A stretch of 64,000 nucleotides of DNA from NCBI RefSeq assembly GCF_053078305.1, contig NZ_CP166879.1. One strand, 5' to 3'. The position numbers are program-made. This document shows, one piece after another, positions 8,601 to 11,600 of the stretch (position 1 is the stretch's first letter; each line of letters begins with the position of its first letter).

Positions 8601-11600
8601 GCCTGTCAGCGCCAGCGAGGATCTCGGTGCAGGTACGCATGTTGAAGTCATTGCGATAGAAGGGATAACGCTGATCATCCGTGCGGTCATCGCCTGATGC
8701 GACGCTGACGCGTCTTATCATGACTACAAAATATGCCCGAATCGTAGGCCAGATAAGGCGCTTGCGCCGCATCCGGCAGTCGTGCACCGAAGCCTGATGC
8801 GGCGCGGGCGCGTCATATCACGCCAAAACCGTAGGCCGCCTCCGCCATGTTAAATGTTAACTGGCATTGGCAATTTACTCTTCCCGGCCTTTACTCATAC
8901 TTTTTTGGTCTTCATCCGGATAGTGTTTTTTTAGATATTCCAGGACGTTTTTATTGACCTTGTGTTGCGTATACACCCACCCTTTCCAGTAATCAGGCTG
9001 GTCCAGGTAAACTTCTGGCGGAATGGTGAAATCAGAAAGCGTTAACCATTCGGCTAACAGATCGGGGTTTCGTTTCTGGATCAACTGCAACAGCATAATC
9101 AGCGACATGGCAGAGGCAGGAGCCGTACTATCGCCGCTTAAATACTTCCATACTGTCGACCGGTTCGAACGAAAAAGGATCGGTAGCAATGCCCGGTCCA
9201 GATTCATTTCATTAAAAATCTTCTCAAATTCATTCATTTAAATTTTCCTGCCTGGCGTAAACCTCTTAAAAATTGAGATTTATCAAAGAAACGCATTTTA
9301 GCACACATCAGGAACCGCTTCACGTTTAGTCCAGAAACAGAATTTATTTCGCTTATCAAAACAAGTCTTTACTCTTTTTTACATTGAAAGAGCACGAAAT
9401 GATTTCCTTTTTTATTTATAAAAGAAACAATTTTTGTTTCTTATTGGTGGTGTTTACGCTTACATCAAACAAAAATGCGCTTTACATCACACAAATGGCG
9501 GCGTAGATTTCGATCAAATTGCAACGCAGATTAATTCTTATAACAACGTTTTATGTTGCTTATAGAAACAAATATGTGACTTACTTTGGACGAGAAAAAA
9601 TACATGAATACTGTAAAGTTGTCTTTACTGGCTGTCGTTGTTGCTACCGCAGTAAGTCCATCTGCGTTTGCGGGTGATACTGTTGAGGCGGCAGCGACAG
9701 AATTAGCGGCAATCCAGCCAGGAATGTCGCAAGTGGAAATTGATCAGAAAATTGGTCGATTTTTAGAAAGGACAGGAAATAGCGCAGCCGCACAAAATTA
9801 TCTGATTGCGCATGATTACCAGACAACGACGCCTCAGGAAAATACAACTGCTTCTCCCGTACAGCCCGCCAGTACGCTGAACCCGATAACCAATCAAGCG
9901 CAGACCGTCCGCGACAACGGGCAGGACACCGCCATTCAGGACGCGCAACATGCCGCCAACTGGGCGTCGCAAAAAGCTGATGATGCGCACCATGCCATTA
10001 TGGTGGCGCAGACGGATATTGATGCCAATAAAGCCGCCATCACCGACACCCGCAATGATGTCTCCGCAGTGCAGTCAGACGTCACCAACATAAAAGCCGA
10101 TGTCGCACATGCTCAGTCAACGGCTGACCATGCCAACGCTAACGCCAACACCGCTCTGATGAACGGCGTCAAACTTTCCGGTGCTGTGACAGAAAACAAA
10201 AACAATATCGAACAGAACCGCAGCGATATTGCTGACCAGCAGAAACGGCTGGCATCAAACGAGCACAAACAGACCGTCCGCGACAACGAGCAGGACACCG
10301 CCATTCAGGACGCACAACATGCCGCCAACTGGGCTTCACTGAAAGCTGATGACGCGCAGCACGCCATCACGGTGGCGCAGACGGATATTGATGCCAATAA
10401 AGCCGCCATCGCCGACACCCGTAATGATGTCTCCGCAGTGCAGTCAGACGTCACCAACATAAAAGCCGATGTCACACATGCCCAGTCAACGGCTGACCAT
10501 GCTAACGCTAACGCCAACACCGCTCTGATTAACGGCGTCAAACTTTCCGGTGCTGTGACAGAAAACAAAAATAATATCGAACAGAACCGCAGCGATATTG
10601 CTGACCAACAGCAACAACTCGACGAAACCCGGAAAACCGTTGCCGCCACCGGGGATGTGCAGACTGCCGCCCGATATCAGAGCATGATTGACGCCAGACA
10701 GACAGCCGCTGCCAATGCGCAACAGGAACAAGCGGACACCCAGCAGCAACAAATGGACGATCAGCAGAAACAAATCGACGCGACGCAAAAAACGGTTTCC
10801 GCACTTGGCGATGCCCAGACCAACGCACATTATCAAGAGATGGTTAACGCCGGACTGAGAGCACAAAATGATGCGAATGCGCGTACTGCAGCAGAACAAA
10901 AACAAAAAATAGATACTCTGGCGACTAACCAGGCAACGCAACAGCATATCGATAGTGTGCAGTACGGGGAACAAATTCAGCGTCTGGCGCAAGACTCAAC
11001 GCAAACGCATGAACAAATTGACAGCCTGACACAAGACGTAACCCAAACGCATCAGCAGTTAAGCAACACGCAAAAACGAGTAGCGGATAATAGCCAACAG
11101 ATTACTACGCTCAATAACCATTTCAGTTCGCTGAAAAACGAAGTTGAGGATAATCGTAAAGAAGCCAATGCGGGAACTGCATCTGCCATCGCTATCGCCT
11201 CACAACCACAGGTTAAAACCGGTGACGTGATGATGGTGTCAGCGGGAGCGGGAACCTTCAACGGTGAATCTGCGGTGTCTGTAGGAACATCTTTTAATGC
11301 CGGAACGCATACCGTGATTAAAGCCGGTGTCTCTGCGGATACACAATCTGATTTCGGCGCGGGTGTCGGCGTGGGATATTCGTTCTAATATTTCAATCCT
11401 CAATATAAATAAGAGCAAGGAAGCTTGCCGGTTTTCACCTCTTCATTAATTTGTACATTATTTAAGGTTAACAATGATGAATAGCTCCATTAAATCGTTT
11501 TCCCTGCTGGCGGTTATATTACTGGCTGGCTGTAGCTCACCCGCTTCCCGCATCGCAGATTGCCAGGCGCAGGGCGTCAGCCATGACACCTGTTATCTCG

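What the first reader, a model, noticed from the sequence alone, without database searches (positions are those of the whole stretch)
9604..11388. Short trimeric-autotransporter-like adhesin with a near-perfect 372-bp internal tandem duplication
The C-terminal ~75 residues match the YadA-type membrane anchor, but the passenger is almost entirely a coiled-coil-like stalk with no recognisable YadA-like head. Two adjacent ~124-aa blocks differ at only a few nucleotides, implying a recent duplication and possible length variation. The gene is absent from the K-12 backbone as I recall it.
Basis: partly seen in the sequence, partly recalled or inferred. Interest (0 to 1): 0.65.

Follow-up and report, generated by a model that had tools for sequence, protein, structure and literature searches.

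The report
Variable-length trimeric autotransporter surface fibre (gmrA allele)
This E. coli gene encodes an outer-membrane-anchored coiled-coil surface fibre whose length varies between strains (0 to 5 copies of a 123-residue cassette), and its O157:H7 orthologue was published as a cytoplasmic transcription factor, "GmrA", which the sequence does not support.

Summary
The ORF at 9604-11388 is real. It encodes 594 aa: a Sec-type signal peptide, a small helical N-terminal domain, a Pro/Thr linker, about 430 residues of heptad coiled coil, and a full-length YadA_anchor match (Pfam E=4.8e-11; sequence matches to the solved AtaA, Hia and YadA anchors). No YadA-type head was found.

The repeat is real but was misdescribed. 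Its period is 369 bp (123 aa), not 372. The copies differ at 20 of 346 aligned nucleotides (94.2%). Block position is conserved between strains, so the duplication is old.

Length variation is confirmed. Of 5426 complete E. coli genomes, 350 carry 1-5 cassettes. About 1060 more carry a cassette-less form or only part of the gene.

Verdict: an uncharacterised member of a known kind. Its function is unproven, and the literature conflict needs resolving.

The parts
8875..9237 (-). [not shown]
9238..9603 (.). AT-rich (about 31% GC) divergent intergenic region, presumed regulatory
   Evidence: Composition. One promoter-like site at 9481-9509, but the count is not above the shuffled expectation.
9604..11388 (+). 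[not shown]
   Evidence: The exact protein is KFD76845.1, 'adhesin [Escherichia coli]'.
9604..9672 (+). Signal peptide, aa 1-23 (MNTVKLSLLAVVVATAVSPSAFA|G)
   Evidence: Read directly from the sequence: basic n-region, a 15-residue hydrophobic core and an AFA|G cleavage-type motif. SignalP was not available.
9673..9828 (+). N-terminal tip domain, aa 24-75, three short helices
   Evidence: AlphaFold2 helices 27-35, 43-57 and 61-69, pLDDT about 78-80. The profile finds only 18 clusters among 1.84 billion representatives; 16 of the 18 hits start at residues 21-38. Two of those inspected end in a YadA-type anchor behind unrelated stalks. The domain is 44-69% identical in O157 and Pseudocitrobacter.
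9829..9900 (+). Pro/Thr/Gln-rich linker, aa 76-99
   Evidence: pLDDT 30-47 with no secondary structure.
9901..10269 (+). Cassette copy 1, aa 100-222 (11 residues plus 16 heptads)
   Evidence: This is a divergent allele, at least 99% identical in only 32 genomes.
10270..10638 (+). Cassette copy 2, aa 223-345
   Evidence: It is 97-98% identical to the last cassette of other strains. The heptad register shifts by +4 relative to copy 1.
10639..11205 (+). Conserved C-terminal stalk, aa 346-534, with two 'KTVxAxGDxQT' units and a 42-bp direct repeat at 10969-11052
   Evidence: 76% identical to the O157 protein. Helices 352-401 and 404-532 with kinks at the two GD sites. Clean heptads from 439 to 534. 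Short repeats.
11206..11385 (+). YadA-type membrane anchor, aa 535-594, ending GVGVGYSF
   Evidence: Pfam PF03895, E=4.8e-11, model positions 1-60 of 60. Sequence matches to the AtaA, Hia and YadA anchors.
11474..11896 (+). [not shown]
11893..12096 (+). 67-aa single-pass membrane protein; its ATG overlaps the lipoprotein stop codon (ATGA)
   Evidence: A 43%-identical homologue sits in the same position in Pseudocitrobacter.

Best explanation
The gene encodes a type Vc (trimeric autotransporter) surface fibre.

Inferred pathway. A Sec signal peptide takes the protein to the periplasm. Three C-terminal anchors, each contributing four beta-strands, assemble into one outer-membrane barrel. The passengers are then threaded out and zip into a trimeric coiled coil.

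Inferred anatomy of the mature fibre. It carries three small helical tip domains on flexible Pro/Thr linkers at the far end of a rod. The rod is about 64 nm long, calculated from the 435 helical residues at 0.148 nm each. It is built from a conserved anchor-proximal stalk plus two 123-residue cassettes, each worth about 18 nm.

Cassette structure and variation. Each cassette is 16 heptads plus one 11-residue stretch. It can therefore be added or removed in frame without breaking the coil, at the cost of a +4 shift in heptad register. Cassette number varies from 0 to 5 among E. coli strains, with at least two kinds of junction. The likely mechanism is unequal homologous recombination.

Function. 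The most likely role of the variation is to tune how far the conserved tip projects beyond O-antigen or capsule, and perhaps to vary antigenicity. The ligand is unknown.

Context. The gene belongs to a four-gene module: a small divergent gene that may encode an HTH protein, the autotransporter, a lipoprotein and a small membrane protein. The module forms O-island 29.

For: Signal-peptide-like N-terminus and C-terminal GVGVGYSF.

YadA_anchor matched over the full model at E=4.8e-11, in both the window protein and the O157 protein. Sequence matches to the solved anchors of AtaA (E=1.4e-6), Hia (E=2.4e-6) and YadA.

AlphaFold2 predicts a continuous helix from 98 to 349 across both cassettes at pLDDT 70-88, and helices up to residue 532. 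The heptad register is unbroken within each cassette, with core residues I/V/A and Asn at d positions. The register shifts by +4 per cassette.

Copy number: 350 of 5426 complete genomes carry 610 cassettes, 1-5 per genome with a median of 2. Protein lengths of 338, 459/471, 577-600, 702-717, 825 and 962 aa are all in frame. Two junction types occur in various combinations.

Positional orthology of the blocks between strains.

The mature protein is acidic: pI 4.7-4.8, net charge -16 (O157) to -30 (window).

The tip domain sits at residues 21-38 onward in 16 of its 18 hits, and two inspected hits end in a YadA-type anchor behind different stalks.

The four-gene module is conserved in Pseudocitrobacter next to a recombinase. 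The autotransporter-lipoprotein pair is conserved in Enterobacter asburiae.

Earlier authors read the orthologue as an adhesin or autotransporter: ECs0548 'Saa-like protein' (PMC2323221) and Ec042-0536 'trimeric AT-2' (PMC2808357).
Against: There is no experimental localisation.

The AlphaFold2 monomer leaves the anchor at pLDDT about 30, with only two strands, so the barrel is not shown by modelling.

An O157 mutant lacking OI-29 adhered normally to HeLa and Caco-2 cells (PMC5826968), so adhesin function is unsupported for the short allele under those conditions.

The same paper reports gel-shift and ChIP-qPCR evidence that the orthologue binds the fliA promoter, and reports motility defects in deletion mutants of several strains, complemented in trans in O157. 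The surface-fibre model does not by itself explain these results.

RefSeq annotation of complete genomes calls only a 349-aa C-terminal product without a signal peptide.
Confidence: 0.85

Rival explanations
1. The published reading. The product (GmrA in O157:H7) is a cytoplasmic transcriptional activator that binds the fliA promoter directly and switches on flagellar synthesis. On this view the autotransporter-like features are incidental.
For: PMC5826968 reports reduced motility and fewer flagella after deletion of gmrA, with complementation by gmrA alone. It reports a gel shift of the fliA promoter with 0-120 nM His-tagged protein and ChIP-qPCR enrichment with a 3xFLAG fusion. It also reports the same motility phenotype in eight further strains. 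The claim is repeated in reviews (PMC10877973).
Against: The deletion, cloning and tagging primers map exactly onto the autotransporter ORF.

The only significant domain in the O157 protein is YadA_anchor, at E=2.6e-11. Every DNA-related match is a sub-threshold coiled-coil hit: SMC at 22 bits against a cut-off of 567, and TMF_DNA_bd at E=0.16.

The protein has a signal peptide and an outer-membrane anchor, and it is strongly acidic (pI 4.7, net charge -16).

The tagged constructs would probably block normal targeting. The N-terminal His tag sits in front of the signal peptide, and the FLAG tag is fused directly after the terminal Phe. The assays were therefore probably done on mislocalised protein.

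Confidence: 0.05
2. It is a surface fibre, but the published motility effect is also real and indirect. The presence or absence of the fibre, or of the module's lipoprotein or small divergent protein, changes envelope signalling, and that changes fliA expression.
For: This would reconcile the sequence evidence with the complemented motility phenotype. The three island genes are expressed together in DMEM and fall together on cell contact (Supplementary Table S3 of the paper).
Against: There is no direct evidence. Deleting z0638 or z0640 did not change motility. Adhesin expression usually lowers motility rather than raising it (my own knowledge of E. coli adhesin-motility cross-talk).
Confidence: 0.25
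3. The fibre is an immunoglobulin-binding or serum-resistance protein of the Eib, UspA2 or DsrA type, in which the coiled coil itself binds host proteins and each cassette adds a binding site.
For: The architecture is headless and made almost entirely of coiled coil. Cassette multiplication would raise avidity. Several known coiled-coil-dominated autotransporters work this way (my own knowledge).
Against: There is no sequence similarity to any Eib passenger or to Saa beyond the anchor. The cassette-less O157 allele is the commonest form.
Confidence: 0.12
4. The long ORF is not the real gene. The true product is the 349-aa C-terminal piece that RefSeq annotates, or the locus is a decaying pseudogene.
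For: RefSeq annotates a 1050-bp CDS in every cassette-bearing complete genome inspected. The first cassette lies under 'no annotated feature'.
Against: The full ORF is open in every allele inspected, across 0-5 cassettes, and all length changes are multiples of three. The N-terminal signal peptide and tip domain are conserved as far as Pseudocitrobacter. A product without a signal peptide could not place a YadA anchor in the outer membrane. GenBank submissions do carry the 594-aa protein.
Confidence: 0.03

Closest known systems
[not shown]
   Same: Same chromosomal slot between ybbJ and cueR, with the same neighbours (120-aa gene, lipoprotein, small membrane protein). Same signal peptide and tip domain (about 65% identity). 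The C-terminal 255 aa are 76% identical, with a nearly identical anchor.
   Different: The O157 protein has 338 aa and no 123-residue cassette. The window allele has two, adding 246 residues of coiled coil. The published function, a transcription factor, is not supported by the sequence.
Saa, the plasmid-borne STEC autoagglutinating adhesin
   Same: A short E. coli trimeric autotransporter with a YadA-type anchor, whose length varies between strains through internal repeats (the repeat variation is from my own knowledge of Paton 2001 and Lucchesi 2006). ECs0548 was labelled 'Saa-like' (PMC2323221).
   Different: On E. coli plasmids from ruminants the match covers only residues 503-594, at 37.5% identity. 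I take these hits to be Saa but did not verify it. The passenger, the repeat unit (123 aa against 37 aa) and the genomic location all differ.
Coiled-coil-dominated trimeric autotransporters: NadA (Neisseria), HadA (Haemophilus), UspA2 (Moraxella), Eib proteins (E. coli prophages)
   Same: A YadA-type anchor plus a passenger that is mostly or wholly trimeric coiled coil. Asn at core d positions. Modular stalks that recombine (my own knowledge of the families).
   Different: No passenger sequence similarity was detected. This protein has its own rare N-terminal three-helix domain on a disordered linker. I know of no such feature described for those proteins.
SadA-SadB (Salmonella) and AtaA-TpgA (Acinetobacter), autotransporter plus partner lipoprotein pairs
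   Same: A lipoprotein gene is linked to the autotransporter gene, and the linkage is conserved across genera.

Membership tests
Trimeric autotransporter adhesins (type Vc secretion) | C-terminal YadA-like membrane anchor domain (PF03895) | tested here: met
   Pfam E=4.8e-11, model positions 1-60 of 60, residues 535-594. Sequence matches to the solved anchors of AtaA, Hia and YadA.
Trimeric autotransporter adhesins (type Vc secretion) | N-terminal Sec signal peptide | tested here: met
   MNTVKLSLLAVVVATAVSPSAFA|G, read from the sequence. It is conserved in all alleles. No dedicated predictor was available.
Trimeric autotransporter adhesins (type Vc secretion) | Coiled-coil stalk running into the anchor | tested here: met
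   Helix up to residue 532. Clean heptad register from 439 to 534.
Trimeric autotransporter adhesins (type Vc secretion) | Obligate trimer forming one 12-stranded barrel | tested here: inconclusive
   Only a monomer could be modelled. The anchor came out at pLDDT about 30 with two strands. Trimerisation is inferred from homology to Hia, AtaA and YadA.
Trimeric autotransporter adhesins (type Vc secretion) | Surface exposure and adhesive activity | not testable with these tools
   The only published test, an OI-29 deletion in O157, showed no adherence defect on HeLa or Caco-2 cells (PMC5826968).
YadA/Hia-type headed adhesins | Recognisable head or neck domains (YadA head repeats, Trp-ring, GIN, neck) | tested here: not met
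   No Pfam or NCBIfam head or neck family scores. The N-terminal domain is three short helices.
[not shown]
   Synteny. 76% identity over the C-terminal 255 aa and about 65% over the N-terminal 75. The published primers flank the autotransporter ORF exactly.
Bacterial DNA-binding transcription factors (the function claimed for GmrA) | A recognisable DNA-binding domain and a cytoplasmic location | tested here: not met
   Only sub-threshold coiled-coil matches: SMC at 22 bits against a cut-off of 567, and TMF_DNA_bd at E=0.16. The protein has a signal peptide and an outer-membrane anchor and a pI of 4.7-4.8.
Eib immunoglobulin-binding proteins / Saa | Passenger homology to the Eib or Saa stalk | tested here: not met
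   Phage and plasmid matches cover only the anchor-proximal 15-30% of the protein at 33-45% identity. No EibD chain appears in the PDB search.
MliC/PliC lysozyme inhibitors (for the downstream lipoprotein) | Sequence homology, including the inhibitor loop motifs | tested here: not met
   [not shown]

The most novel reading that the evidence does not exclude
The fibre is a surface structure whose presence is coupled to flagellar gene expression. On this reading the published gmrA motility phenotype is real, but it is transmitted from the cell envelope, possibly through the module's lipoprotein, small membrane protein or small divergent protein, rather than by DNA binding. Strains would additionally tune the fibre's reach in steps of about 18 nm to match their O-antigen or capsule.
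Probability: 0.2. Interest if true: 0.6.

Novelty: new member of a known kind. Interest (0 to 1): 0.42.

Why it matters
First, about a quarter of complete E. coli genomes carry some form of this gene (1414 of 5426). They include O157:H7, ExPEC and APEC lineages and EAEC 042. Its product is almost certainly surface-exposed, which makes it a candidate colonisation factor or vaccine antigen, yet nobody has tested it as one.

Second, the literature and reviews list the orthologue as a transcription factor. The sequence argues for an exported outer-membrane protein, and the tagged constructs used probably prevented export. If so, the regulatory model for EHEC motility needs re-examination.

Third, current RefSeq annotation truncates the cassette-bearing alleles to a product without a signal peptide. 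This hides both the true protein and its length polymorphism from pan-genome and adhesin surveys.

Fourth, the natural 0-5 cassette series is a ready-made set of variants for testing how stalk length affects the function of a trimeric autotransporter behind O-antigen or capsule.

Tried and rejected
- **Eib or Saa kinship.** Protein searches against phage and plasmid records and the PDB matched only the anchor.
- **Barrel modelling.** The AlphaFold2 monomer gave low confidence at the anchor.
- **HTH identity of the divergent 120-aa protein.** Only weak Pfam hints. No hit in the PDB, NCBIfam or PHROGs. Unproven.
- **Promoter and terminator scans.** Counts were not above the shuffled expectation.
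- **Rfam.** Nothing around the gene except a REP-type element at the island's edge.
- **SMC and Rad50 matches in NCBIfam.** Rejected as coiled-coil composition artefacts, at 14-34 bits against cut-offs of 246-1087.
- **Antisense ORFs inside the gene** (for example 10486-10992 on the minus strand). Treated as by-products of the repetitive codon composition and not followed.
- **Literature search for Saa repeat variants.** It returned no usable source, so that point rests on my own knowledge.
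Full report
**1. What is in the sequence**

The window holds an intact ORF from the ATG at 9604 to the stop at 11388, 594 aa. An in-frame TTG lies 18 nt upstream. The product begins MNTVKLSLLAVVVATAVSPSAFA|G, which reads as a standard Sec signal peptide, and ends GVGVGYSF.

Pfam finds one significant domain. YadA_anchor covers residues 535-594 over the whole 60-position model at E=4.8e-11. A sequence search of the PDB returns only autotransporter anchors: AtaA (1.4e-6), Hia (2.4e-6 and 1.2e-5) and YadA (0.077). Those alignments run from the last coiled-coil turns through all four strands.

No head, neck or other passenger family of trimeric autotransporters scores. The remaining Pfam and NCBIfam matches (SMC, Rad50, alanine zipper, intermediate filament) are far below threshold and reflect coiled-coil composition.

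**2. Anatomy of the protein**

An AlphaFold2 monomer model (mean pLDDT 64) gives the following:
- three short helices at residues 27-69, pLDDT about 78-80
- an unstructured Pro/Thr/Gln-rich linker at 75-99
- one uninterrupted helix from 98 to 349, pLDDT 70-88
- two further helices, 352-401 and 404-532, kinked at two 'GD' sites
- a low-confidence C-terminus with two strands

A monomer cannot form the shared barrel, so the model neither confirms nor refutes it.

Written out in sevens, residues 111-222 keep one heptad frame. Core positions hold I, V or A, with Asn or Thr at several d positions. Asn at d is a hallmark of autotransporter stalks (my own knowledge of Hartmann et al. 2009). A register scan shows frame 5 through cassette 1 and frame 2 through cassette 2, a +4 shift per unit. 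It also shows a clean frame from 439 to 534 leading into the anchor.

Each 123-residue unit is therefore 11 residues plus 16 heptads. It can be inserted or removed without breaking the helix. The mature protein is acidic, with pI 4.8 and net charge about -30.

**3. The repeat**

Tandem Repeats Finder and the repeat finder both give a period of 369 bp across 9901-10615, at 94% identity. A position-by-position comparison shows 346 nt in register (9901-10246 against 10270-10615) with 20 mismatches, or 94.2%. That corresponds to 8 of 115 residues different, with 11 synonymous and 8 non-synonymous codon changes. The last 23 nt of each unit are unrelated. Copy 1 ends in a junction reading RLASNEHK, whereas copy 2 continues into the conserved stalk.

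So the repeat is real and far beyond chance. It is 369 bp rather than 372, and it is not near-perfect.

**4. Length variation and the age of the duplication**

- Of 5426 complete E. coli genomes, 1414 match some part of the gene and 348 match at least 80% of it.
- The cassette alone is found in 350 genomes as 610 copies, 1-5 per genome with a median of 2. An evenly spaced sample of 60 genomes held 23 with one copy, 31 with two, 5 with three and 1 with four.
- Called proteins are 338 aa (no cassette, O157:H7), 459/471 (one), 577-600 (two), 702-717 (three), 825 (four) and 962 (five). All are in frame.
- Two junction types occur, alone and combined: cassette-to-cassette 'LASNE[QH]KQ', and stalk-to-mid-cassette 'QADxQQ[TS]DI[DE]ANK'. 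Rearrangement has therefore happened more than once.

An identity matrix of cassettes from five strains shows positional orthology:
- the window's copy 2 is 97.4-98.0% identical to the last copy of other strains
- first copies of other strains are about 98% identical to one another
- internal copies can be 99% identical
- the window's copy 1 is at most 95.5% identical to any other cassette

Copy 1 is found at 99% identity or better in only 32 genomes. The first duplication therefore predates these lineages. Only the expansions of internal copies look recent.

**5. Locus and the names already in the literature**

The gene lies in a 3.4-kb insert between ybbJ (8239-8697) and cueR (12100-12507). 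In K-12 these two genes abut directly.

The same slot in O157:H7 holds a 338-aa 'YadA family autotransporter adhesin'. It is flanked by the same 120-aa divergent gene, the same 140-aa lipoprotein and the same small membrane protein. In strain Sakai this is ECs_0548, listed as 'Saa-like protein' among adhesion genes by Ogura et al. 2007 (PMC2323221). [quoted passage not shown]

The window protein and the O157 protein are 76% identical over the last 255 residues and about 65% identical over the first 75. The difference between them is the two cassettes. The exact 594-aa protein is already in GenBank as KFD76845.1, 'adhesin'.

**6. The conflict with 'GmrA'**

I mapped their primers onto an O157:H7 genome:
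- The deletion arms sit at L004 4548-4586 and 5604-5641. These are the bases immediately flanking the 338-aa autotransporter ORF at 4587-5603. The downstream arm is also present unchanged at window 11389-11426.
- The expression clone starts at the ATG of the signal peptide.
- The 3xFLAG tag is fused directly after the terminal Phe of the anchor.

GmrA is therefore this autotransporter. The His tag in front of the signal peptide and the FLAG tag on the C-terminal Phe would both be expected to block normal targeting. That expectation is my inference from how Sec signal peptides and the C-terminal signal of outer-membrane proteins work.

The paper's 'putative DNA-binding domain' came from a CDD search, and I could not see the figure. 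In my scans the O157 protein has YadA_anchor at E=2.6e-11. Everything else is sub-threshold coiled-coil noise, including SMC (22 bits against a cut-off of 567) and TMF_DNA_bd (E=0.16). One of these plausibly explains the CDD call.

The protein is acidic, with pI 4.7. [quoted passage not shown]

I cannot refute the motility phenotype, which was complemented in O157 and also seen in deletion mutants of eight further strains. The sequence does make a direct cytoplasmic DNA-binding role unlikely, and I put it at about 5%. No paper in the searchable library links GmrA with its autotransporter nature.

**7. The module around the gene**

*Conservation elsewhere.* In Pseudocitrobacter faecalis the whole module recurs next to a serine recombinase. 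It comprises a 121-aa divergent gene (45% identity), an autotransporter with the same tip domain, a second autotransporter-like gene, the lipoprotein (49%) and the small membrane protein (43%). In Enterobacter asburiae a 293-aa autotransporter is followed by the lipoprotein. A third lipoprotein homologue has no autotransporter neighbour.

*Divergent 120-aa protein.* It shows only weak helix-turn-helix hints.

*Tip domain.* It is rare, with 18 clusters among 1.84 billion representative proteins. In 16 of the 18 hits it starts at residues 21-38, right after a signal peptide. Two of the hits I inspected, P0207 (708 aa) and P0209 (515 aa), end in a YadA-type anchor behind quite different stalks. 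P0207 lies in a prophage-like context, and neither has the lipoprotein next to it. Strong conservation of the tip against a variable stalk suggests that the tip is the functional end and the stalk is a spacer. That is inference.

**8. Most likely mechanism**

The protein is exported by Sec. Three anchors form one barrel, and the passengers fold outside into a trimeric coiled coil. Small helical tips sit on flexible linkers at its far end.

At 0.148 nm per helical residue, the 435 helical residues give about 64 nm here. The O157 allele would give about 27 nm, and each cassette adds about 18 nm. These lengths are calculated, not measured.

Unequal recombination between cassettes changes the length in frame. 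I consider tuning of reach past O-antigen or capsule, and possibly antigenic variation, the best reading of the polymorphism. A ligand-binding role for the cassette itself cannot be excluded. Adhesion is unproven, since an O157 mutant lacking the island adhered normally to HeLa and Caco-2 cells.

**9. Verdict**

The finding is a real but ordinary kind of object. [quoted passage not shown] Its repeat polymorphism is typical of the family.

Two things lift it above routine. Its orthologue sits in the literature as a transcription factor, against the sequence evidence. And current RefSeq annotation truncates the cassette-bearing alleles to a 349-aa product without a signal peptide.

Noticed in passing
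L001 7650-8699; L002 3236-4285; L003 2867-3916; L014 1036-2085; L015 2439-3488; L016 3308-4357 (equivalent to window ~10339-11388): In every cassette-bearing complete genome inspected, RefSeq annotates only a 1050-bp (349-aa) C-terminal CDS. It lacks the signal peptide and tip domain, although the full ORF is open. The first cassette lies under 'no annotated feature'. GenBank submissions do carry the full 594-aa protein.
   Followed up: yes
L004 4548-5641 (O157:H7 TW14359); window 11389-11426: The published gmrA primers for deletion, pET28a cloning and 3xFLAG tagging (PMC5826968, Table S2) map exactly onto the autotransporter ORF. The His tag precedes the signal peptide and the FLAG tag follows the terminal Phe of the anchor.
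   Followed up: yes
window 8747-8824 (weaker copy at 8658-8724): A REP/BIME-type element matches Rfam naRNA4 above the gathering score (60.4 bits) at the ybbJ edge of the island.
   Followed up: no
[not shown]
   Followed up: partly
window 11893-12096: A 67-aa single-pass membrane protein gene starts with an ATG that overlaps the lipoprotein stop codon (ATGA), which suggests translational coupling. It is conserved (43% identity) in the Pseudocitrobacter module.
   Followed up: partly
L006 90-5707 (Pseudocitrobacter faecalis CP174503.1): The four-gene module recurs beside a large serine recombinase. It carries an extra 588-aa autotransporter-like gene that ends in SLSVGW but has no Pfam hit on record. 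This suggests the module is mobile.
   Followed up: partly
L001 9498-10721; L002 5085-6308: Some strains carry an extra 1224-bp hypothetical gene between the 67-aa gene and cueR. It is absent from the window and from O157.
   Followed up: no
window 12504-13679 (minus strand) and beyond; L001 11126-15402: Just past cueR lies a type I secretion system (HlyD-family adaptor, ABC permease/ATPase). In related genomes it is followed by a roughly 20-kb BapA/SiiE-like giant adhesin gene (O-island 28), which is frameshifted in O157. Two different surface-fibre systems thus flank cueR.
   Followed up: no
phage records H165-H179; PHROG 17426: Many lytic phages of Pantoea, Erwinia, Yersinia, Cronobacter and Escherichia encode proteins with a YadA-type anchor. 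They are annotated as adhesin, tail protein or receptor-binding protein, and they match residues about 420-594 of this protein.
   Followed up: no
L010 4001-6127 (metagenome contig ERR13332828_41): A 708-aa autotransporter with the same N-terminal tip domain sits among DNA methylases, a porin gene and an Acb2/Tad1-like anti-defence gene. The context looks like a prophage.
   Followed up: no
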